UHGV virus genome: UHGV-0248979
Strand: one strand, 5' to 3'
Length of the DNA stretch: 64,000 bases
Source of the DNA: a virus
Shown here: one piece after another, positions 2,726 through 61,587 of the stretch
Numbering within the stretch: the stretch's first letter is position 1
How the letters are laid out: each line of letters begins with the position of its first letter
The notes under the pieces: model-generated
What the model was told of the DNA's origin: nothing
Database searches by the model: none
Seen by the model: the letters and a program-made list of their open reading frames with translations, nothing else
Made by a program: the position numbers and the translations under genes

Positions 2726-3256
2726 TTAAGCAGTAAAGCCGTCAAGTTCACCGTCGGTGGTGGCCAGGTCAATACGATTATCAACAACTTTCGGCGTAAT
2801 TACGAAAGTTGCCATTACACCCGGTTTATAACGGAGGTTCTTTTCAGTAACGGTACAAGTTACCGTACGCAGAGTGACGCTATCGTGTTCGTCTTTCTGG
2901 TCTTCGGTGGTGTACTCAACGTCACCAGGTGCGATAGAGTCGTCAGGTTTTACTTTATTGATGTAAAACTGTAATCGGTCGCGTAGTTCGTTTTCTCCAG
3001 TCCAGAGAGCCAAATCGTCCGTTACCTCAATGCGTCCGACAACGCCAGGTTCCAGACGATCGTAATGCAGTTCGATTGCGCCTTTAAAATTTTCAGACTC
3101 TGTACGTGCGGTCATGGTAACTTTGGTATTTTTATCGCCCTTTTCAAGAGCGACAGGTTGACCAAAAGTTACCTCTTTATCAGTGACCTGATGCGGTAGC
3201 TCTGTGTTAGCAGCATTATAAAGCGCAACTAACATCATCTGGTTAGTAGCTGCCAT
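2726..3256 (-). CDS. paralog family member P1 (putative tail-associated protein); C-terminus ELDGFTA
   Basis: 176 aa; N-terminal pattern shared with five other ORFs in the window; C-terminus shared with 3324..3890. Confidence 0.6.
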   Translation of the reverse strand: MAATNQMMLVALYNAANTELPHQVTDKEVTFGQPVALEKGDKNTKVTMTARTESENFKGAIELHYDRLEPGVVGRIEVTDDLALWTGENELRDRLQFYINKVKPDDSIAPGDVEYTTEDQKDEHDSVTLRTVTCTVTEKNLRYKPGVMATFVITPKVVDNRIDLATTDGELDGFTA

Positions 3257-3307
3257 TATCTTAAATCCTTAAAATGAAAGTTAAAGAAATATCGGGGGAG
3301 GTTACCA

Positions 3308-3316
3308 CCCCCCCCC
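3308..3316 (-). repeat. homopolymeric G9 tract (C9 on the plus strand), intergenic between P2 and P1
   Basis: Nine consecutive C read directly at 3308-3316. Confidence 0.9.
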
Positions 3317-3323
3317 GAATCAA

Positions 3324-3890
3324 TTACTCTTTAGGCGCTGGTGCGGTGAAGCCATCCAGTTCACCTTCCAAACCGCTCAGTGCTACTTTCTCAATAGCCG
3401 GAGGAGTAACTTTATACGTTGCAACAGTACCTGGCAGGAACTTCAGGTGTCCAGTCACAACAGTTACTACGTAAATGGTTTTGCCTTCTTCTTCACGGGA
3501 AATAGTTTGCAGGTCGTTTTCACCGAACTCGTCATCGGTGTACCCCTTCTCAACCATGGCTGCGTTAACTTTTGCCAGGATTTTCGTTGGTGAATCGAAA
3601 TCGGTAGTAGGTGCAGTTACTTCAACTTCACCAACGATGTCGCAGGAAAGACGAGTATAGTGGAATTCTTTCTCGCCTTTGAAGTTCTGGCTTTCTGCCT
3701 TGGCGGTCAGAGTAATTTTAGTGTTGCGGCCAGCTTCTCCGGTGAAGTCAGCGACAGCACTAAAGTCAACATCAGCTACGGTGAGAGCGGAGCTCAGAGA
3801 GCTGTTTTTAGTGTTAATAAGTTCGATAAGCTGCTGTTGAAAAGTTTTAGCCATTGTTTTTACCTCGTAAGTAGTATGGGTGGTTTGCAT
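3324..3890 (-). CDS. paralog family member P2 (putative tail-associated protein)
   Basis: 188 aa; tandem paralog of P1, same ELDGFTA C-terminal motif plus a PAPKE extension. Confidence 0.6.
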   Translation of the reverse strand: MQTTHTTYEVKTMAKTFQQQLIELINTKNSSLSSALTVADVDFSAVADFTGEAGRNTKITLTAKAESQNFKGEKEFHYTRLSCDIVGEVEVTAPTTDFDSPTKILAKVNAAMVEKGYTDDEFGENDLQTISREEEGKTIYVVTVVTGHLKFLPGTVATYKVTPPAIEKVALSGLEGELDGFTAPAPKE

Positions 3891-11086: not shown

Positions 11087-11106
11087 CTAGGTAATATATA
11101 TCTGAA
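11080..11106 (-). promoter_or_regulatory. conserved phage promoter element, copy 1
   Basis: Minus-strand TTCAGATATATATTACCTAGGTGAGAG followed by an 8-bp-stem hairpin, about 45-70 nt upstream of a start codon. Confidence 0.55.
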
Positions 11107-15323: not shown

Positions 15324-15350
15324 CTCTCTCCTAGGTAATATATATCTGAG
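15324..15350 (-). promoter_or_regulatory. conserved phage promoter element, copy 2
   Basis: Minus-strand CTCAGATATATATTACCTAGGAGAGAG plus a downstream hairpin. Confidence 0.55.
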
Positions 15351-15356
15351 AAAAAA

Positions 15357-15392
15357 TATAAAAACCGTAGGATGGACTTAGTCCATCCTACG
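15357..15392 (-). terminator. rho-independent terminator after the tailspike gene
   Basis: Hairpin ccgtaggatggac-ta-gtccatcctacgg followed by a T-run. Confidence 0.7.
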
Positions 15393-15399
15393 GTTTAAA

Positions 15400-17520
15400 T
15401 TAAATAACTACCCAGCTTTTACCATCGGAACCAATCTGCATTAGCGTAATACTTTCACTGGTATCAATGGGTTTGGCAAGACCTTCTGTCCCACTCTTTG
15501 GAGTGATGAGAACGTTTGAATTTTCCGGTTTAACGGTGATCTTACCAGCCTTATTTGCCACGATCTGAATATTTCTGCCCACGCTATATTCTAGATCAGG
15601 AATAGTAAGTTGGCCGCCACGGTTGGTGGGTGGGAAATACACATAAGACGACACATCTTCCTCAGATAACACTATGCTACCAGAATCACGATTGACCGAG
15701 ATCTCAAACTTAGAAATATCGATATCATAGGCAGTAACTTTCGTAATATCCGTCAGAACCAATTCGTTCAAATCGGTCTTAGCTGGACTGTTCGCCAGAT
15801 CAAATGGAGTACCATTCGTACCGTCCAGCACAGGTGTGACTGTGGTTTTATTGGCACCAGGATAAATGATTTCAAGCGTATGCCAGTTATTATCGTACGC
15901 ACCAAAAGTTCCTAATTTCGCATTTTGCTTTTTATGATGCATCAGATTAAGATTCGTAGCGTCGGTCTGTAAGAAAAAAGACATTAGGTACGGGTTCGTC
16001 TCAGCCACACCAGCGTCAGCAAATGTAGTACCAGAAGGTAGGTCGGACGCGGAAATACGCCAATAAAGTCCTAATCCGAAACGATCTGCTGCTAAATCAC
16101 CTTTTAGTCTAAAAGTAACGGTCAGACGTCCACCGTAACGTATCATGTCCGCAGCAGATGTCATTGACTTAGTTACATTCCAAGGTTTCATCTTTACAGC
16201 CTTTCTTAATTCGACGAAATGCCCGTTTCCATCCTCAGAATCTTGCACGGTTACGTTACAATCAACGATATTGTTCCAACCTTGCCCTTTCAGGGAACCA
16301 TCCCCACGACGTCCGTTATAACCCACAGACTCTACTAATGGGGTATAGCTTCTTACCACATTCTTATTGTCTTTGGAGCTCTTAGTGTCGTTCTTCGTCA
16401 GGAACATTGCACCAATCGCTGTTCTTGATAATATCTCGGCAGCTATTCTCTCTGAGATAATACCGCGTCGTGCCCAAGAACTGAAATGGCTATTCCTTGT
16501 TTCAGACGTCCAGTTTTTAACAGTACGGGAGGCAGCACCGTAATAGGCCGCACCAGTGATATCAGGATCGTCAGTGGGATCATTAGTCGGTACACGTTGG
16601 CCATTATCGTCGTACATGAATGGAACAAAAAAGATATTTTTTTGTTCATTGTTACGATAATTACCGTATACGGTTTCATATTGGGCAGGATATTTTTCCT
16701 TCCAATAATAGGTAGTGTCCCCGCAGATCCATGGTACTTCGGCGGTGTCGTACTCGGGCATCTGAGAGAGATGGTCAGAGAGATCAGTTCGGAAACGCTC
16801 TACCATTGCGTTAAATAACGCTGGTTGTTGTGCGTATTGTACTTTAGTCAGATCATACTCTCCCTGCATCCACACTACAGCCAAGAGTTTATTTTTAGGA
16901 TTAACTTCTAGAGCTTTTTTGGTCCGGCTAACTAAATCTTTATAAAGCGGTTTCTCCACCCCCCATAGCATTGACGACTCAGTGGCTCCTGTGGCTTCAT
17001 CGAAGGTACCTTCTGCACCACCCGTGAAAGCAGAACCGCCGCGTGCGCAGGGTACTAGTAAGATACCGGCGTTCTTAGGAATATACGGGAGAAGACGCTT
17101 CGCGATATGTAGACCTTGACCCACACATCCGTATTCACCTTTGCTCAAATTGGCATTGGGATGCGAGTATTTGGACATATCTTGCACGTCGTGCAGACAG
17201 TGATCCGCTGGAATGACGTCGTTATATTTACAATCAGCCCCATTAGGCGTTACCTTCGCACGGCGCGCCATCTGTTTAATTCGCGGATCGGGAGCGTCCA
17301 ACGTCGCCGGTAGAGGCAACCCTTCACCATAACTCATCGCATTAGATTGCCCGGCTATAGGAATCACGAAGTAATACTCCGGCTCCGTCGTGCCCTGAAG
17401 TTTTGCAATATCAATTTTATATTCTTTTTCTTCCTTAGAAAGAAGAACTAACGCACCTTTGAGATCGCCAGAGAAATTGTCGAGTTCATGGATACGTTTC
17501 TTTCCAATTGGCTGACTCAT
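15400..17520 (-). CDS. tailspike/tail fibre protein with SASA/SGNH-type carbohydrate esterase domain
   Basis: 706 aa; N-terminal segment homologous to the 1479-aa fibre N-terminus; GQSNAMSY motif typical of sialate O-acetylesterase-like SGNH hydrolases. Confidence 0.65.
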   Translation of the reverse strand: MSQPIGKKRIHELDNFSGDLKGALVLLSKEEKEYKIDIAKLQGTTEPEYYFVIPIAGQSNAMSYGEGLPLPATLDAPDPRIKQMARRAKVTPNGADCKYNDVIPADHCLHDVQDMSKYSHPNANLSKGEYGCVGQGLHIAKRLLPYIPKNAGILLVPCARGGSAFTGGAEGTFDEATGATESSMLWGVEKPLYKDLVSRTKKALEVNPKNKLLAVVWMQGEYDLTKVQYAQQPALFNAMVERFRTDLSDHLSQMPEYDTAEVPWICGDTTYYWKEKYPAQYETVYGNYRNNEQKNIFFVPFMYDDNGQRVPTNDPTDDPDITGAAYYGAASRTVKNWTSETRNSHFSSWARRGIISERIAAEILSRTAIGAMFLTKNDTKSSKDNKNVVRSYTPLVESVGYNGRRGDGSLKGQGWNNIVDCNVTVQDSEDGNGHFVELRKAVKMKPWNVTKSMTSAADMIRYGGRLTVTFRLKGDLAADRFGLGLYWRISASDLPSGTTFADAGVAETNPYLMSFFLQTDATNLNLMHHKKQNAKLGTFGAYDNNWHTLEIIYPGANKTTVTPVLDGTNGTPFDLANSPAKTDLNELVLTDITKVTAYDIDISKFEISVNRDSGSIVLSEEDVSSYVYFPPTNRGGQLTIPDLEYSVGRNIQIVANKAGKITVKPENSNVLITPKSGTEGLAKPIDTSESITLMQIGSDGKSWVVI

Positions 17521-17523
17521 CTA

Positions 17524-18036
17524 CTACTCTCCAAAAGTTAAGATTTTATTGTCAAACGTCAACACGACAGAATCATCACCGATGCCACACGGTGTTTCAT
17601 CTGGGCCGAAAACCACCACGGAGAACTGTCCTTTATAAGCGATGGAATTCGGAGCGATGCTAAGCGTTACCGCGTCTTTACCTACCGTGAACGACTGGTC
17701 GGTTAAATCGTCGGTTTGTAAGTTAGCACCACAAACGGCATTGACGGATTCGATAAGATCGTGTGCATTAAACCCTTCACCTCTTACTTTTACCAGAATA
17801 GGTTGTTGGTTTAACCACCGCTCTGCGGTTAAACGGTTGTAGTAGATTTGCAACGTTCTGTTTCCAGGACGTTTAATCTTTACAATGGCAGTGGAGTCAC
17901 GATCCATTTCATCACTGGTTTTTACGTCACTGACTTCAACCTCGTTCTCTTGCAAGTCAAGTTGGAGGTCATGGTTAACCAGTGAAATAACCATGTTAAG
18001 TGAAGTTAGTGATAAATCTGGTGTGAATTTTTCCAC
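17524..18036 (-). CDS. paralog family member P5, translationally coupled to the tailspike gene
   Basis: 170 aa; GTG start preceded by an AGGAGG RBS; stop 3 nt before the tailspike ATG. Confidence 0.6.
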   Translation of the reverse strand: MEKFTPDLSLTSLNMVISLVNHDLQLDLQENEVEVSDVKTSDEMDRDSTAIVKIKRPGNRTLQIYYNRLTAERWLNQQPILVKVRGEGFNAHDLIESVNAVCGANLQTDDLTDQSFTVGKDAVTLSIAPNSIAYKGQFSVVVFGPDETPCGIGDDSVVLTFDNKILTFGE

Positions 18037-18090
18037 GTATGTTTACCTCCTACGGTTGGGGGTCATAAAATATTGACTAAAAAACATTCA

Positions 18091-18100
18091 CCCCCCCCCC
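18091..18100 (-). repeat. homopolymeric G10 tract (C10 on the plus strand), 5' of P5
   Basis: Ten consecutive C read directly at 18091-18100. Confidence 0.9.
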
Positions 18101-18103
18101 ACG

Positions 18104-18131
18104 ATTATTTTCAACCGCTTTCAGTTGAAAA
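18104..18131 (-). terminator. hairpin at the 3' end of the adhesin-like gene
   Basis: 12-bp perfect stem attattttcaac/gttgaaaataat with loop cgctttca. Confidence 0.5.
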
Positions 18132-18134
18132 TAA

Positions 18135-18642
18135 TTAGCTAATTCTCAAATCACGCAGTGCGCCTGTCGATTTCATCACGTTTTGGAACGCAGCGCTGAT
18201 GTTATTAGTCCAGTAATAATGCTGTCCGTTAATAACCTGCTGATAGGCCAGCGCGCAGGTGTTACCACCTAAATTTACGGTAATGTTAGAGGCTCTGCCT
18301 CCTTGTAAGTAAACCGCTAAAGTAGGCTTTGCGTTGGCAACTATCGTCGTTAACTGTAACTCAATACCTACTAAAGTTCCCACCCCGCAGTTACCCGCGT
18401 TTTGAATGGTTCCCTGATTTTTCTGGTTTAACGGCCAGCTTGGTCCTACTGCGCCCCATTTCTTACCTAAAGAATCGCTATATGCAGCGGTTGCAATTTT
18501 ACAGCCCATAGATCGTCCCACCATTTGACTCATCATAAAAGGTCTACCCAATCCTAATTTACTACCAGCAGCGCTCATCCATTGTTCGCCCGTTTCGTTC
18601 TTGGCCGAAGAACCGACCCACGAACCGGTTACCCCCCCCCAT
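18135..18642 (-). CDS. adhesin-like tail fibre-associated protein, paralog B; 5' end put out of frame by a G9 tract
   Basis: ORF track gives 18135..18578. The same frame is open upstream (…GSWVGSSAKNETGEQW) and matches paralog A's N-terminus; an ATG with AGGAG RBS at 18642-18640 is +1 out of frame across the G9 run. Confidence 0.6.
18632..18640 (-). repeat. homopolymeric G9 tract overlapping the start codon of adhesin-like paralog B
   Basis: Nine consecutive C at 18632-18640; the minus strand reads AT-GGGGGGGGG-TAACC. Confidence 0.9.
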
Positions 18643-18654
18643 CGCGATCTCCTG

Positions 18655-18885
18655 TTAAGATTTTCTACATGTTATTGAATCGAAAGCACCACGCCCAACC
18701 CAACGCCAATTATAATGATGATCAGCTTTATAAAGTGTGTATCTGCCCTGCTTTTTTACGTCGAAAATATTGATCGTAGTCTCTTCATTACCCAGCTTAG
18801 CTGTGCCGTAACATACAGGTTCGGGTAGTTGTTGACATCCACTTACTGTAAGCAATGCGAAACCCAGTAAAACTTTTCTTAACAT
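18655..18885 (-). CDS. small lipoprotein between the two adhesin-like genes (candidate receptor-masking protein)
   Basis: 76 aa; signal peptide with lipobox (LLTVSG-C); mature part about 59 aa with further Cys. Confidence 0.6.
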   Translation of the reverse strand: MLRKVLLGFALLTVSGCQQLPEPVCYGTAKLGNEETTINIFDVKKQGRYTLYKADHHYNWRWVGRGAFDSITCRKS

Positions 18886-19451: not shown

Positions 19452-19481
19452 AACTAAAATAGGGGGATTACTCCCCCTATC
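19452..19481 (-). terminator. hairpin terminator after the tail fibre gene
   Basis: Hairpin tagggggagtaatccccctat followed by a T-rich run on the minus strand. Confidence 0.6.
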
Positions 19482-19482
19482 T

Positions 19483-22400
19483 TTAATTCCCCTTGAGTTC
19501 TTTAAGCTCTTGGCGAAGAGTTTTCATGCCTTCTACTAACAACGCAATAACACCATTGTAATTTAGACGTAAACGTTTTTCGCCTGAAATGGCATCGTCG
19601 TCCTCGGACACAAGTTCAGGTAACGCTTCTAATGCGTCCTGAGCAATTAGACCTACAGAAGTCTGCCAACCGTCATCAGGATGCTGAATTTCGTACAAAT
19701 AACCGGTTAGTAACTCTAACCGATCCAAAGCTTTATCCAGCTTCACCAGATTACGTTTGTTACGACGGTCAGAACGAATCTGTACGTCGTTAAACGAACC
19801 GTTACCGTTGCCAGTAACGTTATGTCCAAAGTTTACTTGGCCGTTAGAATTATTAAAAGACAACGGGCGTAATCCGTTCCAGGAACCCGCTGCGGCTTGT
19901 CCGGCGTCGGTTACTAAGAAATAGGTATTGGCACCGTCGTTACGTAAAATAAAACCGTAGGTACCGTAAGCGATTCGAAAATCAGGGTATTTAGTGGCCA
20001 ATTTACCATTAACGGTTAAATCACCGCCTACAGTACCGCCCCCTGACGGTAACGCGCCCACTTCCGCAGCAGTTGGCTTGTTTCTCGTATTGTAAGCACG
20101 ACGCCAGCCTGGTGAGTATCCATCGCCGTTAAATACGTAGATAAACTCCGCATTAGTGAGTGCTCCGCCGACGCTCGTCGTTGTGGCGGTCGTTATACGG
20201 ATCGTGTAGTTGTTTGTGCTGTTGCCGTTACTAATGACTTCTATAACGGCCCCAGCTAACGGAATGACACCACAACCCGTCTCGCTGTGAGGTATGGACG
20301 CACTGGCGGCATAAGCCCACGCACAGCGAGCAACCCACGATCTTGTGGTAAATGCGCCGTTATTTTTCAATAACGTCACTAGCTGTGCTGTAGTTATTGC
20401 ACCGCCATTAGCGCCAGTTTCTAACCAACCACTAGGTGATGCCGGACAACCTATTTCGGCTGGCCCTAACGCTATATTTCTAGTGCCATCAAACGCAATA
20501 CCATTGATGGTTCTTGCGGTTTGCAACTTTGTTGCCGTGGCTGCGTTTCCGGTGGTCGACTGATTCCCTGTTTGGTTTACTCCAGGTAAACTGATGTCTT
20601 TAGTACCATCAAAAGCTACGCCACCTATATTTCGAGCAGTCTGTAGCTTAGTCGCTGTCGCCGCATTCCCCGTAGTCGATTGGTTACCGGTTTGGTTTAC
20701 ACCAGGAAGATTAACGTCTTTTGTCCCATCGAACACCACACCGCCGATCTTACGTGCGGTTTGTAACTTAGTAGCGGTCGCTGCATTACCTGTCGTATTC
20801 TGGTTGCCTTGCTGGTTAACGCCCGGTAAATTGATATCACCTGTACCGTCAAAGCTAACGCCTCCGATCCTGCGAGCGGTTTTCAGTTTCGTCGCGGTAG
20901 CGGCGTTGCCGGTAGTATCCTGATTACCTGTGGCATTTACACCAGGAATGCTATCACGGGCAGTATAAACTTGTGCCCAATCTGACCACGGCGCATCAGC
21001 AGTATCACGTCGACTACGAATATAAACGGGTGCGTGCGCACCGCTCGTCCCCGACCATCCGATTAACAGTTCCCCTTCGCCTAGCGCAGCAGAACCGCCC
21101 AAATGCAGTAAGTTACCATAAGCGGTTGGATAACCGTTATTGTAAACTTCGTACATCTGAATACCGGGTGTACCTTTGTTTGATCCAGTCAGTGCAGTAA
21201 CACGTCCACGTCCTACCAACGTGTTGATATTGATGTCTCTAGACCCATCAAATTTCACACCGTTGATGTTTCGAGCCGTTTGTAATTTGGTTGCGGTTCC
21301 CGCGTTCCCAGAGGTGTTTTGATTACCCTGTTGGTTTACACCAGGGAGGCTAATGTCTCCGCTACCGTCGAAACTTACACCGCCGATTAAACGGGCTGTT
21401 TTCAGTTTCGTTGCCGTAGCAGCATTGCCTGTTAACTCACCTGATAACCCTTTTGCAAAGGTCTGTTTTTCTGCCCACGTATGCGCTGCATTCAATACGG
21501 GCATCTGGCGGCTAGTAATAGTACGTTTACCCTTTTCACCAGCGACGCGAACAGCAAAGAAGCGATAGTTAGCAGTAGACACTGTACCACGCCAGACCAA
21601 CATACTCCGGCCAGTACCGGTGTCCTCCGACGCCCCTACAAGAATAGTAACCAAGTTACCGTCGATAACACCCCAATCCATTCCCGCAGGAATGTTTTTC
21701 ATGGTATTCAATGGTGTACTTATCATCTGGCCAGGAACGAAGTCGAAGGTTTGCCAGTCTAACGGATCTACCTTAGCAGCAACCCCACCGATCCCTAAAG
21801 CCAACGGGAGTGAATAGGATGTGAAAATCTCTCGCCATTCGCTCCAGGCATTTCCTGTACGAATTCGTTGGAACTTGCGACCTTTCGAAGTTGCGCCTGT
21901 ACCGTATGTGGTATAATTTTGTTCAACACCTGAACCGTCTAAGCGTAAGGTAACTTCGCAAACGCCTAGCAAGGTTGCGCCAGCAGAGTCTGTTAACGGA
22001 CCGTCTGTAGCCTCGCCGGTAACACTAAAGCGACCCGGTTTAGTTAAGTCGTTAAAGCTACCCTTATAGTAGGCACCGTCTACCTGATACCCAACCTGAA
22101 TCCAATCTTCCCACTGCGGATTAGACGAATCCCAAGTCGCAGTCAAACCACGGACATACATCGTACCACGACGAGTGGTGTAACGTTGTAAACGTCCATA
22201 AAGACCGCCTTCCATGACTTCTAATACGCCTTGCGCATTACCGCCCTCTTCAGGATAATGTCTGTCGAACACCGCTAACGAACTGGACGAGTTACGCCAG
22301 TTACCCATGTGCTCAGCGCCGCCTAAGGAGTTCAGATCGATCGATGTAGATAACGGGCGTACACCTGTAGTTACCATTCTCCACGGTGACCACGGGCCAT

Positions 22401-23922
22401 TAGTTCCGTTCCACGCGGCTGACAACATGCGGTTGTACACGTTACCATTACGGCAGGTAAAACGTTGCGCTCCACTGTAGTTGCCCGCTTTATACACTTC
22501 TAGATAACCTACCGCACCGTCTTCCGGGAAGTGTTTTGCTATTGATGCGTTTGTTGATGTCGACTTGGACCATGTTCCTGTGTAATTGGCATCTGGAGCA
22601 AATGTGTTAATATCAGCATCTGCGGGCATTTCACCACGGAAACGCAGATAGGTATCAGGAGATAGACCAATATTGCGAGCAAAGGTTTCTTTATTGGGGA
22701 TATCAGCACCGTTAGAGTTTTTCTGTAACGCAGAGTTCGCTTTATCTACAGTGGCTTTTAATCCCAAGAAATTGATGATATCCGCAGTTGTCCCTTTTGC
22801 TAACAAGGTTCTGGCGGTTTCTGTAAAGTCAGTTAACCCGACTTTATTAGTGCCAGTGAAATAAGGGAGCTTGTTTGCTGCGGTTGTGACTGCGGCAATA
22901 GCAGTAAGTAGTGGACTGATAGGTTGCTTCTGTGCAAGTTTCTCAGTAATCGTTGTTGCGAAGTTAGGGTCATTACCTAACGCCGTAGCTAATTCCGCTA
23001 AGGTATCTAACGTCTCAGGTGAAGAACCAACCAATTCCGCGATAGCAGCACGCACCCAGGCCGTTGTGGAGATGCTCGTGTCGTTCGAGTCCTTTGGGGG
23101 CGTTGGTGATGTCGGGTTACCCGTAAAATTCGGCGAATGTTTATCGGCTTTTAACTGTAATTCGTCGTTCAGCTGTTTAACCGTGGACGGTGTGGCAGCC
23201 TCCGTCACGGATTCGCTAGTCAGGGTATTGTTAAGTTTAACGATACCTTTACCGGTCGTACTAGCGTCAACTAAACCCTGTGCAGCGATTTTCTCCGCAC
23301 GCAGAGCGGCTGACTCCGAGCGTGTAGCTGCGCCTTCTGAGCTTTCTTTATCTTTCGTAACCTGCGCAGCAACCTTCTCCACCGCGCCCTTACTGGCCTC
23401 AATTGAAGCCGCAGTATTTGCGATACTGGTAGCGGTCTGTTGAACCTGTCCGGCCCGTTGCGTAACCGTTTCTGCTTTCTTAGTTACATCAGCCGCTACA
23501 GCTGTCACAGATTGTTCGCTTGCGGCGACAGCTTGAGCCTTCTCATTTACTGATTGTGAAACAGTATCTACGGCAGTTTTTGCTGCTAAAACTTCAGCGT
23601 GTTTTTTGTTAACCTCCGCAGTTTTAGTGGCGACGGTTCCCGCTTGCTCATTAACTGTGGAAGCTAAAGTGGTGGTCTGTTGCTTCGCTGTTTCTGCTAA
23701 ATCTTTAGCTTTCGTAGCTTCTGTTGCGGACTGTTGTGATTTGGCCGCAGCCGTTTGTGCATCAGCAACCGCACTTCTGACGGTGTCAATGTCCGCAACG
23801 ATCTCGCGGACTGGTAACTTATAATCTTTTTCGTCTTTCGAAAAAAGTAAAACGCCTTCACCGATATCCCCGGTGTACGGATGTAAGTCGTGTAAACGTA
23901 TTTTCTTTACCGCTTTAGCCAT
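19483..23922 (-). CDS. long tail fibre protein with C-terminal intramolecular chaperone (peptidase S74-like) domain
   Basis: 1479 aa; Ala/Thr/Gln-rich N-terminal region; six ~40-aa repeats (GNQxTTGNAATATKLQTAR.IGGV.FDG); C-terminal SDRRNKRNL...LVEGMKTL motif typical of self-cleaving chaperone domains. Confidence 0.85.
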   Translation of the reverse strand: MAKAVKKIRLHDLHPYTGDIGEGVLLFSKDEKDYKLPVREIVADIDTVRSAVADAQTAAAKSQQSATEATKAKDLAETAKQQTTTLASTVNEQAGTVATKTAEVNKKHAEVLAAKTAVDTVSQSVNEKAQAVAASEQSVTAVAADVTKKAETVTQRAGQVQQTATSIANTAASIEASKGAVEKVAAQVTKDKESSEGAATRSESAALRAEKIAAQGLVDASTTGKGIVKLNNTLTSESVTEAATPSTVKQLNDELQLKADKHSPNFTGNPTSPTPPKDSNDTSISTTAWVRAAIAELVGSSPETLDTLAELATALGNDPNFATTITEKLAQKQPISPLLTAIAAVTTAANKLPYFTGTNKVGLTDFTETARTLLAKGTTADIINFLGLKATVDKANSALQKNSNGADIPNKETFARNIGLSPDTYLRFRGEMPADADINTFAPDANYTGTWSKSTSTNASIAKHFPEDGAVGYLEVYKAGNYSGAQRFTCRNGNVYNRMLSAAWNGTNGPWSPWRMVTTGVRPLSTSIDLNSLGGAEHMGNWRNSSSSLAVFDRHYPEEGGNAQGVLEVMEGGLYGRLQRYTTRRGTMYVRGLTATWDSSNPQWEDWIQVGYQVDGAYYKGSFNDLTKPGRFSVTGEATDGPLTDSAGATLLGVCEVTLRLDGSGVEQNYTTYGTGATSKGRKFQRIRTGNAWSEWREIFTSYSLPLALGIGGVAAKVDPLDWQTFDFVPGQMISTPLNTMKNIPAGMDWGVIDGNLVTILVGASEDTGTGRSMLVWRGTVSTANYRFFAVRVAGEKGKRTITSRQMPVLNAAHTWAEKQTFAKGLSGELTGNAATATKLKTARLIGGVSFDGSGDISLPGVNQQGNQNTSGNAGTATKLQTARNINGVKFDGSRDININTLVGRGRVTALTGSNKGTPGIQMYEVYNNGYPTAYGNLLHLGGSAALGEGELLIGWSGTSGAHAPVYIRSRRDTADAPWSDWAQVYTARDSIPGVNATGNQDTTGNAATATKLKTARRIGGVSFDGTGDINLPGVNQQGNQNTTGNAATATKLQTARKIGGVVFDGTKDVNLPGVNQTGNQSTTGNAATATKLQTARNIGGVAFDGTKDISLPGVNQTGNQSTTGNAATATKLQTARTINGIAFDGTRNIALGPAEIGCPASPSGWLETGANGGAITTAQLVTLLKNNGAFTTRSWVARCAWAYAASASIPHSETGCGVIPLAGAVIEVISNGNSTNNYTIRITTATTTSVGGALTNAEFIYVFNGDGYSPGWRRAYNTRNKPTAAEVGALPSGGGTVGGDLTVNGKLATKYPDFRIAYGTYGFILRNDGANTYFLVTDAGQAAAGSWNGLRPLSFNNSNGQVNFGHNVTGNGNGSFNDVQIRSDRRNKRNLVKLDKALDRLELLTGYLYEIQHPDDGWQTSVGLIAQDALEALPELVSEDDDAISGEKRLRLNYNGVIALLVEGMKTLRQELKELKGN
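20470..21450 (-). repeat. tandem ~117-nt coding repeats (phage tail fibre repeat units) inside the fibre gene
   Basis: Near-identical nucleotide units in two blocks (4 + 2 copies) separated by an insert; boundaries approximate. Confidence 0.7.
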
Positions 23923-24127
23923 GATATTTAATTCTCTATCTGGAGCTAAAAGATCTGGGAAGGTAAAACACCTCCCCCAACATTTTTATAAGCGGATTAT
24001 TATACTGGTTTTAATCCATCATCTTCTAACGTGAAAGTGATGCCCAACTCCGCGTTCTCATGATCTGGGTTTACTAAGTCTTGATAAACGTTTGCTTTGG
24101 CCTCCATTACCAGAAAAACCGTCAAGT

Positions 24128-24724
24128 TCATGTAGCCGGGTTTTCTTCAGCGGAGTCTCCATCTGGAACCTCAAATGTAAGAACAGCATCGTCACCAATA
24201 CAGAAGATTGCATCTTCTTCGTTTGCTAATGCCCGTTCAGTTTTATCAAATAACGTCACCATAAACGCATTCACCCACGCTGGAGAATCGTCAGCAACGT
24301 TGACAGCAATAGGATCGTTACCTAAAGTGATATCTGAAGCATGTAAATCCTCGGGTTGTAAGTTCGTTCCGCAGAATTCATTTACAACACCTAAAATGTC
24401 ACGAAGGTTGTCTTCGGTACCATCTAACGAAATCAAAATAGGTTCGGACGCTAACACTTTGTCCGCATCCAAGCGGTCGTAATAAACAACTACAGAAGCA
24501 CCATCAGGTTTCCTGATTTTTGTAATCTCTGTCAGTGTGTTACGACGCGACGTAGTCGGGGACAGGTTTGCCATAGTGTTGCTAATACGAATTTCGCTTA
24601 GAGACAACCGTGAACCGTTATCGTGGTTGATTAAAGCGACCACCAATTCGGCTGAGGACAGACTTAAATCAGGTACGTATGTGGCCACTATAGCCTCCCA
24701 GATCAAAAAAAAAATAAAAAACAT
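24128..24724 (-). CDS. paralog family member P6, upstream of the tail fibre gene
   Basis: N-terminal region (VPDLSLSSAELVVALINHDNG) homologous to P5; true start probably a GTG near 24681 with GGGAGG RBS (the ORF-track N-terminus translates a poly-T run). Confidence 0.55.
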   Translation of the reverse strand: MFFIFFLIWEAIVATYVPDLSLSSAELVVALINHDNGSRLSLSEIRISNTMANLSPTTSRRNTLTEITKIRKPDGASVVVYYDRLDADKVLASEPILISLDGTEDNLRDILGVVNEFCGTNLQPEDLHASDITLGNDPIAVNVADDSPAWVNAFMVTLFDKTERALANEEDAIFCIGDDAVLTFEVPDGDSAEENPAT

Positions 24725-24751
24725 CTACCGCCCATAGAATCGGGCGGTAGA
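24703..24751 (-). terminator. rho-independent terminator
   Basis: Hairpin ctaccgcccgattctatgggcggtag followed by a long T-run on the minus strand. Confidence 0.7.
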
Positions 24752-24777
24752 CAGTCATTTTACAGCTAAATATCAAA

Positions 24778-34397: not shown

Positions 34398-34424
34398 CTC
34401 TCACCTAAGTAATATATATCTGAG
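34398..34424 (-). promoter_or_regulatory. conserved phage promoter element, copy 3
   Basis: Minus-strand CTCAGATATATATTACTTAGGTGAGAG plus a downstream hairpin. Confidence 0.55.
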
Positions 34425-61559: not shown

Positions 61560-61587
61560 TCTCACCTAGGTAATATATATCTGAAAT
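61560..61587 (-). promoter_or_regulatory. conserved phage promoter element, copy 4
   Basis: Minus-strand TTCAGATATATATTACCTAGGTGAGAG, about 50 nt upstream of the 47-aa sORF. Confidence 0.55.

What the first reader, a model, noticed from the sequence alone, without database searches (positions are those of the whole stretch)
18091..18100. G10 tract between a terminator hairpin and the RBS of the P5-tailspike operon
Ten G on the coding strand sit immediately after a 12-bp-stem hairpin and about 55 nt upstream of the GTG start of P5, which is translationally coupled to the esterase tailspike gene. Length changes here would alter spacing or structure of the 5' region of a receptor-binding operon. 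Together with the other two tracts this looks non-random in a moderate-GC genome.
Basis: partly seen in the sequence, partly recalled or inferred. Interest (0 to 1): 0.55.

Follow-up and report, generated by a model that had tools for sequence, protein, structure and literature searches.

The report
Hypervariable poly-G in tailspike leader
The ten-G run is real and far from chance: it is a slippage-prone repeat forming one arm of a conserved RNA hairpin ahead of a tail-spike gene pair in an uncultured giant gut phage. Its length differs between near-identical genomes, but an effect on expression is unproven and predicted to be small.

Summary
Observation confirmed. C10 on the + strand (G10 on the coding strand) lies at 18091-18100. 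It is 3 nt after a 12-bp A/U-rich hairpin and 54 nt before the GTG of a DUF7941 gene, which is followed 3 nt later by a NanS-type esterase tailspike gene. The window is part of a ~225-kb SPN3US-related jumbo phage. G/C runs of 9 or more are expected 0.08 times in 64 kb; three occur, all G on the sense strand.

The tract is hypervariable. It is G9, G10 or G11 in 11 near-identical metagenome genomes, and G5 to G13, sometimes interrupted by A, in the wider clade.

It is the 5' arm of a predicted leader stem-loop found in 14 of 15 clade relatives, pairing with CCCCC or CUCCCC just upstream of the Shine-Dalgarno site. Pairing potential is conserved, but covariation is not significant.

The upstream hairpin is not a canonical terminator. 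No sigma-70 promoter uses the tract as spacer. Folding predicts at most about a 2-fold effect for G9-G11.

Best reading: a contingency-type repeat in a slippage-tolerant hairpin, acting as a fine tuner or neutral. The clear ON/OFF switch is the neighbouring G9 at the start of a second gp38-like adhesin gene (in frame with G8 or G11, out of frame here). The tract also marks a mosaic recombination boundary.

The parts
18091..18100 (-). G10 homopolymer (C10 on the + strand). A hypervariable simple-sequence tract that forms the 5' arm of the basal helix of the leader stem-loop.
   Evidence: Lengths are G9 x3, G10 x6 and G11 x2 in 11 near-identical genomes, and G5-G13 in the wider clade.
18101..18106 (-). 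Conserved 5' flank AATC(GT). All relatives read A(A/T)TC immediately before the G run, sometimes with G(A/T) inserted. The mosaic junction maps here.
18058..18090 (-). Rest of the predicted leader stem-loop: inner A/U stem UGAAUGUU...AAUAUUU, a loop with conserved UAG, and the 3' arm CCCCC (18062-18058) that pairs with the G run.
   Evidence: Folds. Covariance model R1 finds one copy per genome. 90% of cells are paired against 57-68% in slid controls, with no significant covariation.
18034..18057 (-). AACCGU linker, Shine-Dalgarno AGGAGG (18051-18046), 9-nt spacer containing an in-frame TAA, and the GTG start (18036-18034).
   Evidence: conserved in alignment A2.
18104..18135 (-). 12-bp A/U-rich hairpin directly after the adhesin-2 stop codon. 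It is conserved, with changes that preserve pairing, in relatives that carry adhesin 2. It is not a canonical intrinsic terminator.
   Evidence: In relatives the stem reads CAAC/GUUG, CAAGC/GCUUG or CAAAC/GUUUG. Not called terminator-like.
17524..18036 (-). DUF7941 (PF25613) 170-aa virion-structural-type protein ('P5'). It is a putative adaptor, because paralogues or homologues directly precede fibre or spike genes here and in SPN3US.
15400..17520 (-). 706-aa tailspike-like protein with a NanS/NanS-p 9-O-acetyl-sialate esterase domain plus DUF6645. Its ATG lies 3 nt after the DUF7941 stop.
   Evidence: SASA, DUF6645; PDB 3pt5 E=3e-122; 6yp6 E=2e-38.
18135..18642 (-). Second gp38-like adhesin gene. 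A G9 tract (18632-18640) directly follows, and includes the G of, its ATG (18642-18640). It is out of frame here and in frame with G8 or G11.
3294..3316 (-). Sister element: G9 (3316-3308) pairing with CCUCCCCC (3301-3294), in the leader between two DUF7941 paralogues (3324-3890 and 2726-3256).
15362..15396 (-). Canonical intrinsic terminator that closes the receptor-binding gene cluster. The early-promoter-like motif TCAGATATATATTACCTAGG follows it.

Best explanation
The G10 is a replication-slippage-prone homopolymer, a contingency-type simple-sequence tract, on the sense strand of the leader of the DUF7941 adaptor / sialate-esterase tailspike gene pair. The host genome is a ~225-kb SPN3US-related jumbo phage.

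In the mRNA the G run is the 5' arm of the basal helix of a conserved stem-loop of about 45-50 nt. It pairs with a pyrimidine run (CCCCC here, CUCCCC with G-U pairs in sister lineages) that ends 6 nt before the Shine-Dalgarno site.

One arm is a homopolymer, so it can slide. Gaining or losing a G only changes the 5' overhang or the loop, and leaves the hairpin and the SD-start geometry intact. The functional unit is therefore most likely the hairpin. Its inferred role is leader stabiliser, processing site or insulator for the downstream cistrons, and also the conserved linker at which receptor-binding modules recombine. Length variation of the G arm is tolerated and at most fine-tunes expression about 2-fold or less. 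It is not an ON/OFF switch.

Shown:
- the tract exists and is non-random;
- it is hypervariable;
- pairing potential is conserved;
- its distance to the start is fixed;
- a mosaic junction maps to it.

Inferred:
- the RNA-level role;
- the small size of any effect on expression.
For: - Length polymorphism at constant flanks: G9 x3, G10 x6, G11 x2 in genomes encoding the identical DUF7941 protein. Apart from one 120-nt indel in the fibre gene, the only internal indels in 6.5 kb across these genomes lie at homopolymer or dinucleotide repeats.
- Wider clade: G5, G7, G9, G10, G13 and the A-interrupted forms GGAGGGGG, GGGGGAGGGG and GAG7/GAG10. The 3' end of the tract stays 54-55 nt from the start.
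- The same hairpin is predicted in all six lineage representatives, z = -2.1 to -4.3.
- 90% of cells are paired against 57-68% in slid controls. Pairs 19/54 and 23/50 each show GU, GC and AU. The interrupting A in L001, L004 and L014 faces a U.
- The many G-U pairs fit the sense RNA, not the DNA or the antisense strand.
- In the L003-type lineage all nine Gs lie inside the helix.
- TIR opening energy is 8.1, 8.4 and 9.7 kcal/mol for G9, G10 and G11 here, and flat in the L002 lineage.
- The hairpin persists for every n of 5 or more.
- Mosaicism: the 300 nt upstream of the L005 tract are 90% identical to L001, but its leader is 98% identical to L002, L003 and L009. The window's upstream is 98% identical to L013, but its leader only 72%.
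- L011 lacks the element yet keeps the gene.
Against: - Covariation is not statistically significant: there are no double compensatory changes and the shuffles score as high. The structure therefore rests on conserved pairing potential among fairly similar sequences.
- Two very distant DUF7941 paralogues, not alignable by BLASTP, both carry A(A/T)TC-G9-11-TG...pyrimidine-arm leaders. In both, the length centres on 10 across lineages. This hints at selection on the long tract itself, or on a recognised motif, rather than mere tolerance.
- In a complete 222-kb relative the only G/C runs of 7 or more are two G9 tracts, one of them this sister leader.
- No transcription start, processing site or expression data exist.
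- Assembly consensus lengths of homopolymers may be wrong by one.
Confidence: 0.5

Rival explanations
1. True expression rheostat or phase-variable control. Tract length sets the level of the adaptor-tailspike mRNA or its translation, through the 5' overhang of a terminal stem-loop, helix length, RNase access or the register with SD-proximal bases. Together with the ON/OFF adhesin-2 tract this would give combinatorial heterogeneity of the receptor-binding apparatus. The bacterial analogue is the G(n) tract upstream of Moraxella uspA1.
For: - Hypervariability is established.
- Long tracts are retained at two leaders of distant DUF7941 paralogues, with the mode at G10.
- All long tracts in the window lie in or beside receptor-binding or DUF7941 genes.
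- All have G on the sense strand.
- Modelled SD accessibility falls from about 0.5 (G5-8) to about 0.3 (G10-13).
- The uspA1 precedent shows 21-fold mRNA differences between G10 and G12 (PMC7302503).
Against: - The predicted energetic effect is small, and absent in the sister lineage.
- Some relatives do well with G5 or A-interrupted, 'locked' tracts, and one lacks the element altogether.
- Only about 6 non-coding G5:C5 hairpins exist in the window, so two expansions could be neutral.
- There are no expression data.
Confidence: 0.27
2. Recombination linker or hot spot. The conserved AATC-G(n)-hairpin is the boundary sequence at which adhesin and adaptor-spike cassettes are exchanged between co-infecting phages. 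Poly-G tracts flank the adhesin-2 cassette on both sides (18632-18640 and 18091-18100).
For: - Sharp identity switches occur exactly at the tract in L005 and in the window compared with L012 and L013.
- Tracts bracket adhesin 2 in the window, L003, L007 and L009.
Against: - A mosaic boundary at any conserved intergenic sequence is expected and needs no poly-G.
- No relative shows the deletion predicted from recombination between the two tracts. L002 lacks a second adhesin, but through a hybrid gene with no tract at its start.
- This reading is not exclusive of the other explanations.
Confidence: 0.12
3. Promoter element. The tract is either the spacer of a sigma-70-type promoter (porA/opc style) or the start site or discriminator of a promoter whose -10-like xxTAAT-C sits just upstream, so that transcripts begin in the G run.
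For: - TTGAAA or TTGATT lies 8-10 nt upstream of the tract and TGAAAT follows it in many relatives. G9-G11 would then give 17-19 nt spacers.
- TATAAT, CATAAT or TAGAAT followed by C precedes the run in several relatives.
- TTTTCA-16-AATAAT is reported at 18131-18104.
Against: - In the window the would-be -10 is TGAATG, lacking A2 and T6, and no site is called.
- Promoter-like hits in the region are at chance level: 11 found against 14.3 expected.
- Close relatives of this phage group transcribe with their own multisubunit RNA polymerases, independently of the host enzyme, and their late promoters are not sigma-70-like (PMC7598289).
- The phiKZ late motif TATG occurs in the window's hairpin but is not conserved; relatives read TACG or TCAC.
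Confidence: 0.06
4. Part of a transcription terminator or attenuator between the adhesin gene and the spike operon, which was the first reader's 'terminator hairpin' context.
For: - Two consecutive hairpins follow the adhesin-2 stop.
- The sister element at 3294-3316 is followed by a U-rich stretch, GAUAUUUCUUU.
Against: - No U run follows either hairpin at this locus. AACCGUAGGAGG follows the G/C hairpin, and CGU plus G10 follows the A/U hairpin.
- The scan that detects the canonical terminators of this phage does not call either one.
- The element travels with the downstream gene, not the upstream one (L001, L004 and L005 contexts).
Confidence: 0.03
5. Sequencing or assembly artefact, or chance.
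For: Homopolymers are error-prone, so consensus lengths may differ by one.
Against: - The same tract with the same flanks occurs in more than 25 independent assemblies from ENA, IMG/VR, GenBank WGS and Logan.
- The expected number by chance is 0.016.
Confidence: 0.02

Closest known systems
Hypermutable polyG tracts in receptor-binding protein genes of Campylobacter Fletchervirus phages (Sorensen et al. 2021, Cell Rep 35:109214, as cited in PMC12633550)
   Same: Runs of 7-11 G in the receptor-binding region of a lytic phage. Length heterogeneity creates sub-populations. The neighbouring adhesin-2 tract here works in exactly this way, by shifting the reading frame.
   Different: The G10 studied here is non-coding: it lies in a leader hairpin and cannot shift a reading frame. 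The host is enterobacterial, not one whose own genome is rich in polyG. The phage is an SPN3US-like jumbo phage.
Phage contingency loci in T2/T4 and other phages (Gomez, Barrick & Waters, bioRxiv 2025, PMC12633550)
   Same: Homopolymer repeats that mutate by polymerase slippage and diversify phage progeny. A few lie in intergenic regions.
   Different: Those tracts are mostly repeats of 6 or more bases inside ORFs, and that study reports them as under-represented in tail-fibre genes of coliphages. Here the tracts are G9-G11, are clear outliers of the run-length distribution, and are concentrated at receptor-binding or adaptor genes.
Non-coding G(n) tract upstream of the Moraxella catarrhalis uspA1 ORF (PMC7302503)
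   Same: A polyG of about 8-12 upstream of an adhesin ORF, whose length gives graded rather than ON/OFF changes in mRNA level.
   Different: That case is bacterial and transcribed by host RNA polymerase, and its effect has been measured. Here no effect has been measured, and the tract is one arm of a hairpin.
Homopolymer tracts in promoter spacers (Neisseria porA/opc type; from general knowledge) and the Helicobacter sabA T-tract rheostat (PMC4081817, listed)
   Same: A repeat upstream of a surface or adhesion gene, with length-dependent expression.
   Different: No -35/-10 pair flanks the tract in the window, and phages of this group use their own RNA polymerases.
5'-terminal or intercistronic stabilising stem-loops and RNase III processing hairpins of phage mRNAs (ompA 5' hairpin, T7 RNase III sites; from general knowledge)
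   Same: A long irregular stem-loop just upstream of a ribosome-binding site, in a polycistronic late region.
   Different: No cleavage or stability data exist here, and a homopolymer arm is not a feature of those elements.

Membership tests
Simple-sequence contingency locus (slippage-driven phase or graded variation) | A homopolymer or short repeat long enough for frequent slipped-strand mispairing | tested here: met
   G10. Run lengths jump from 6 to 9-10 with nothing between. Runs of 10 or more are expected 0.016 times.
Simple-sequence contingency locus (slippage-driven phase or graded variation) | Repeat number differs between closely related genomes while the flanks stay the same | tested here: met
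   G9 x3, G10 x6, G11 x2 in genomes with the identical downstream protein. G7-G13 at identical flanks in L002, L003, L009 and L010.
Simple-sequence contingency locus (slippage-driven phase or graded variation) | High-frequency, reversible switching within a clonal population | not testable with these tools
   This needs read-level or plaque-level data. Only assembly consensus sequences are available.
Simple-sequence contingency locus (slippage-driven phase or graded variation) | Repeat number changes expression or function of the associated gene | tested here: inconclusive
   For G10 the tract reaches no reading frame. Folding predicts about 1.6 kcal/mol or less between G9 and G11, and none in the sister lineage. 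For the neighbouring adhesin-2 tract the feature is met: the frame is open with G8 or G11 and closed with G9 or G10, and the 165-codon frame is intact in all 13 genomes.
Intrinsic (rho-independent) terminator | A G+C-rich stem-loop followed directly by a U run | tested here: not met
   The 12-bp hairpin is A/U-rich and is followed by CGU plus G10. The G/C hairpin is followed by AACCGUAGGAGG. Neither is called by the terminator scan, which does find 15396-15362 and 24753-24722.
Sigma-70 promoter with a homopolymer spacer (porA/opc type) | -35 and -10 hexamers flank the tract at 16-18 nt, with A at position 2 and T at position 6 of the -10 | tested here: not met
   The sequence is TTGAAA, then 18 nt, then TGAATG in the window. 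The -10 lacks both key bases and no site is called. Some relatives have TGAAAT, TAAGAT or TAAAAT.
phiKZ-type late promoter (T-3 A T G+1) | A conserved TATG at the transcript start | tested here: not met
   TATG is present at 18066-18063 in the window but is replaced by TACG, TCAC or TTAC in relatives. Motif definition taken from PMC7598289.
Any curated RNA family (Rfam 15) | A covariance-model match | tested here: not met
   No match with E of 1 or less in 17900-18800 on either strand.
Conserved structured RNA element | Base pairs supported by compensatory (both-sides) substitutions beyond the phylogenetic expectation | tested here: inconclusive
   90% of cells are paired against 57-68% in slid controls. 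There are 0 pairs with double changes, and shuffled controls reach the observed covariation. One-sided GU/GC/AU series occur at two pairs.

The most novel reading that the evidence does not exclude
Poly-G leaders of the form A(A/T)TC-G9-13-pyrimidine-arm hairpin are a dedicated, selected RNA-level rheostat attached to DUF7941 adaptor genes. Together with the frame-shifting poly-G in the second gp38-like adhesin, they would let a jumbo coliphage population continuously generate virions with different combinations and doses of receptor-binding proteins (fibre tip adhesin 1 or 2, sialate-esterase spike). This would be a multi-locus bet-hedging system in a nucleus-forming-type phage of the human or animal gut.
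Probability: 0.22. Interest if true: 0.72.

Novelty: new variant of a known kind. Interest (0 to 1): 0.55.

Why it matters
Slippage-prone poly-G tracts that diversify receptor binding have been shown experimentally only for Campylobacter phages. Phage 'contingency loci' in general were proposed only in 2025.

Here an uncultured but widespread SPN3US-like jumbo phage carries three such tracts around its receptor-binding genes. The exact protein is indexed in 192 blocks of the public assembly collection.
- One tract toggles a second fibre-tip adhesin on and off.
- Two are non-coding and form hairpin arms in the leaders of adaptor genes.

If the non-coding tracts tune expression, they would be the first leader-RNA rheostats described in a phage. 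They would also bear on how giant phages adjust host range, which is relevant to phage-therapy cocktails and to reading metagenomic 'frameshifted' tail genes correctly.

If they are neutral, they still flag a hairpin that tolerates slippage, a recombination boundary, and a pitfall for annotation.

Tried and rejected
1. Megablast of the locus against INPHARED phages. The only hit was a 135-nt adhesin fragment in SSU5-like phage-plasmids, so no close cultured relative exists.
2. A genome-contig scan with the DUF7941 protein found nothing.
3. An exact scan of IMG/VR for AATC+G10 returned 120 or more unrelated contigs, some at contig ends. It was uninformative.
4. Longer ORF through the tract. All three frames close between the tract and the GTG, and there is an in-frame TAA next to the SD. 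Rejected.
5. uORF starting at the AUG in the hairpin's 5' arm and ending at the TAA beside the SD. It is present in the window and in the L002 type, absent or truncated in L012-L014, and an analogous GTG-uORF at the sister element is absent in L015. Read directly from the sequences. Not supported.
6. Sigma-70 promoter with the tract as spacer, and a phiKZ-type TATG late promoter. Not met.
7. Terminator reading of the upstream hairpin. Not met.
8. Rfam: no family matched.
9. Covariance model search for further copies. There is one copy per genome, and the sister G9 element is not the same RNA.
10. Covariation statistics: not significant.
11. G-quadruplex. A single G10 cannot supply four G tracts with loops (reasoning only).
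12. Anti-SD model, in which the C arm would pair with the SD unless the G run sequesters it. With n=0 the model does pair the C run with the SD, but accessibility changes only from 0.38 to 0.5. Weak.
13. A Markov simulation timed out and was replaced by the analytic expectation.

Full report
**1. What is there**

The + strand carries C10 at 18091-18100. The neighbouring genes are all on the - strand, so the coding strand reads G10. Reading the - strand 5' to 3', the order is:
- the end of an ORF, with its TAA at 18137-18135;
- a 12-bp A/U-rich hairpin (18135-18104);
- CGT;
- G10;
- UGAAUGUUUUUUAGUCAAUAUUUUAUGA;
- CCCCC (18062-18058);
- AACCGU;
- AGGAGG (18051-18046);
- 9 nt that include an in-frame TAA;
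- the GTG at 18036.

The distance from the tract to the start is 54 nt. All three frames are closed between them, so the tract is non-coding.

**2. Genomic setting**

The window belongs to a jumbo phage.
- It has a 764-aa major head protein (phrog_3231) that is 78-80% identical to those of Erwinia phage Asesino, phiEaH2 and Salmonella phage SPN3US.
- No close relative is present in the cultured-phage collection.
- The nearest annotated record is a 222-kb 'plasmid' of Enterobacter ludwigii, which is clearly the same kind of phage.

The local gene order on the - strand is:
1. DUF7941 paralogue (24688-24128);
2. a 1479-aa fibre with gp34-trimer and S74 chaperone domains;
3. gp38-like adhesin 1;
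4. a Cor-like 76-aa gene;
5. gp38-like adhesin 2;
6. the two hairpins and G10;
7. DUF7941 ('P5', 170 aa);
8. a 706-aa spike with a NanS/NanS-p sialate-O-acetylesterase domain;
9. a canonical terminator.

This order rests. The DUF7941 stop and the spike ATG are 3 nt apart, with GGAG inside the upstream gene. In SPN3US the DUF7941 homologue, annotated as a virion structural protein, also directly precedes tail-fibre genes. An adaptor role is therefore a reasonable inference.

**3. More than chance**

The base-composition expectation is 0.077 G/C runs of 9 or more and 0.016 runs of 10 or more per 64 kb. Three are observed: 3308-3316, 18091-18100 and 18632-18640. All are G on the sense strand, and no run of length 7 or 8 exists.

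In the complete 222-kb relative the only G/C runs of 7 or more are two G9 tracts, again G on the sense strand. One is the homologue of the 3308 element. The other splits a Cys-rich repeat-protein gene.

**4. Hypervariability**

Ten ~225-kb metagenome contigs encode exactly the same 170-aa protein. They differ from the window by 17-148 substitutions in 6.5 kb. In these contigs plus the window:
- the leader tract is G9 (3 genomes), G10 (6) or G11 (2);
- the adhesin-2 tract independently is G8 (1), G9 (4), G10 (5) or G11 (1);
- apart from one 120-nt indel in the fibre gene, every internal indel lies at a homopolymer or a (GA)n repeat.

In the wider clade, where the DUF7941 protein is 69-92% identical, the leader tract takes these forms:

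| Form | Genomes |
|---|---|
| G5 | L012, L013 |
| GGAGGGGG | L001, L004 |
| G5AG4 | L014 |
| GA+G7 | L009 |
| G9 | L003, L006 |
| G10 | L002, L005, L008 |
| GA+G10 | L007 |
| G13 | L010 |
| element absent | L011 |

L002, L003, L009 and L010 have identical flanks but G10, G9, G7 and G13. One caveat applies: these are assembly consensus sequences, and a single length could be off by one.

**5. The tract is an arm of a hairpin**

In every lineage the minimum-energy fold pairs the 3' part of the G run with a pyrimidine run just upstream of the SD. This encloses an inner A/U stem and a loop with an invariant UAG.
- In the L003-type sequence all nine Gs lie within an 18-position helix: 7 pairs with UCUCCCC, one G-G mismatch, then G-C.
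- Where the tract is interrupted by A (L001, L004, L014), the A faces a U.
- A covariance model of the element finds exactly one copy per genome and none elsewhere.

On the model-based alignment 90% of cells are paired, against 57-68% when partners are slid. However, no pair has a change on both sides, and shuffled controls reach the observed covariation. Pairing potential is thus conserved, but the structure is not proven by covariation. The many G-U pairs point to the sense RNA rather than to DNA or the antisense strand. Rfam has no matching family.

**6. What length changes would do**

A homopolymer arm can slide, so the hairpin is predicted for every n of 5 or more. The geometry from the hairpin's C arm through the SD to the start does not change with tract length.

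The modelled cost of opening the ribosome-binding region is 8.1, 8.4 and 9.7 kcal/mol for G9, G10 and G11 in the window's context, and flat in the L002 lineage. That amounts to roughly a 2-fold effect at most. I therefore see no computational support for an ON/OFF switch at this tract. A modest graded effect, or an effect through RNA decay or processing that folding cannot capture, remains possible.

**7. What it is not**

- The upstream A/U hairpin is conserved, with changes that preserve pairing (CAAC/GUUG, CAAGC/GCUUG, CAAAC/GUUUG). It lacks a U run and is not called by the scan that detects the phage's canonical terminators.
- No sigma-70 promoter uses the tract as spacer in the window. 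Phages of this group are known to use their own RNA polymerases, with promoters unlike sigma-70 ones (PMC7598289).
- The phiKZ late TATG motif is present in the window's hairpin but is not conserved.
- A short uORF that could be read from the hairpin to the TAA beside the SD is not conserved either.

**8. Hints that the long tract is more than tolerated**

A second non-coding tract (G9, 3316-3308) lies in the leader between two other DUF7941 paralogues. It shares three features with the G10 leader:
- it is preceded by A(A/T)TC;
- it is followed by TG;
- it pairs with CCUCCCCC.

It is G9-G11 (mode 10) in ten near-identical contigs and G9-G11 in more distant relatives. Yet the two downstream proteins are so diverged that BLASTP cannot align them. 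The common leader architecture is therefore not simple inheritance.

Against this, the window has only about six non-coding G5:C5 hairpins, so two neutral expansions are not implausible. Some lineages also carry short or 'locked' tracts.

**9. Mosaic boundary**

Sequence identity switches partner exactly at the tract.
- The 300 nt upstream of the L005 tract are 90% identical to L001, while its leader is 98% identical to L002, L003 and L009.
- The window's upstream is 98% identical to L013, while its leader is only 72% identical to L013 and 91% identical to L006 and L008.

The AATC-G(n)-hairpin is thus the junction between the adhesin cassette and the adaptor-spike cassette.

**10. The real switch next door**

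The G9 at 18632-18640 includes the G of an ATG that is preceded by AGGAG.
- With G9 or G10, translation stops after 26 codons or fewer.
- With G8 or G11, it reads a complete 168-169-aa gp38-like adhesin.

Both ON states occur in nature (L141 G8, L146 G11, L003 G8). The 165-codon frame is intact in all 13 genomes examined, whether ON or OFF. This is a textbook phase-variable gene. It is the closest parallel to the Fletchervirus polyG tracts cited in PMC12633550.

**11. Verdict**

The G10 is a genuine, hypervariable, contingency-type tract embedded as one arm of a conserved leader stem-loop, at a module boundary of the receptor-binding cluster. Most likely the hairpin is the functional unit and the length variation is buffered, acting as a fine tuner or neutral (confidence about 0.5). 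A true expression rheostat is the main rival (about 0.27).

It is a new variant of a known kind, a non-coding poly-G in the leader RNA of a jumbo coliphage, rather than a new category.

Noticed in passing
window 18135-18642 (- strand), tract 18632-18640: A second gp38-like adhesin gene is phase-variable through a G tract that begins with the G of its ATG. It is out of frame in the window (G9) and in frame with G8 or G11 in L141, L146 and L003. The 165-codon frame is intact in all 13 genomes. The ORF listing shows only a truncated 147-aa ORF (18135-18578).
   Followed up: yes
window 3294-3316 (- strand): A G9 pairs with CCUCCCCC in the 67-nt spacer between two DUF7941 paralogues (3324-3890 and 2726-3256). 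It is G9-G11 in relatives and shares the A(A/T)TC...TG flanks with the G10 leader. It is followed by a U-rich stretch, so it could be a weak terminator.
   Followed up: partly
window 18655-18885 (- strand): A 76-aa ORF between the two adhesin genes matches the Cor superinfection-exclusion family (phrog_1119, E=1e-25). Cor is known from phi80/N15-type siphophages. It is odd to find it inside the fibre-adhesin cluster of a jumbo phage.
   Followed up: no
window 15400-17520 (- strand): The 'tailspike' carries a NanS/NanS-p 9-O-acetyl-sialic-acid esterase domain (PDB 3pt5 E=3e-122; 6yp6) of the kind found in EHEC prophages. It is fused to a ~44-aa N-terminus shared with the otherwise different spikes of relatives.
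   Followed up: partly
window 16959-16964 (C6 on +); L149 about 4072: In contig L149 this G6 (sense strand) is G7 and splits the esterase spike into 193 + 533 aa. Even the 6-mer slips, or is mis-assembled.
   Followed up: partly
window 15335-15343, 34409-34417, 11091-11099, 61570-61578 (- strand): The repeated motif TCAGATATATATTAC(C/T)TAGG lies just downstream of canonical terminators. It resembles the AT-rich early (virion RNA polymerase) promoters described for jumbo phages. A (GA)n repeat right after it varies in L142.
   Followed up: partly
window 24686-24753 (- strand): The T6AT10 run (A10 on + at 24705-24714) is the U tract of a canonical terminator (CTACCGCCC...GGGCGGTAG). The 198-aa ORF call starting at 24724 is therefore too long. 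The DUF7941 paralogue more likely starts at GTG 24688, behind GGGAGG.
   Followed up: partly
window 23957-23977 and 19461-19477 (- strand): Further G-run/C-run hairpins (GGGGAGG...CCTTCCC; GGGGGAG...TCCCCC) punctuate the fibre and adhesin-1 junctions. The receptor-binding cluster is separated by G5:C5-type hairpins, two of which have expanded arms.
   Followed up: partly
L165 13331-13339 (NZ_CP134650.1 213331-213339, - strand genes): In the Enterobacter relative a sense-strand G9 sits at the junction of a 69-aa and a 170-aa ORF. These ORFs belong to a family of Cys/Ser/Gly-rich repeat proteins next to a coiled-coil 401-aa protein. The stretch has no CDS in the plasmid table, so it is probably another frame-shifting tract. 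The record is labelled a plasmid but is a jumbo phage genome.
   Followed up: partly
L014 3967-3976; L007 2383-2392; L013 2375-2383: Other relatives carry long tracts at different spots in the same cluster:
- G10 inside the gene after DUF7941 (L014);
- G10 serving as the SD of adhesin 2 and paired with CCTCCCCCC (L007);
- C9 as the 3' arm of the hairpin upstream of adhesin 2 (L013).
   Followed up: no
L141 and L149 fibre gene compared with window 19483-23922: A 120-nt in-frame indel in the 1479-aa fibre gene gives 1439-aa variants in closely related genomes.
   Followed up: no
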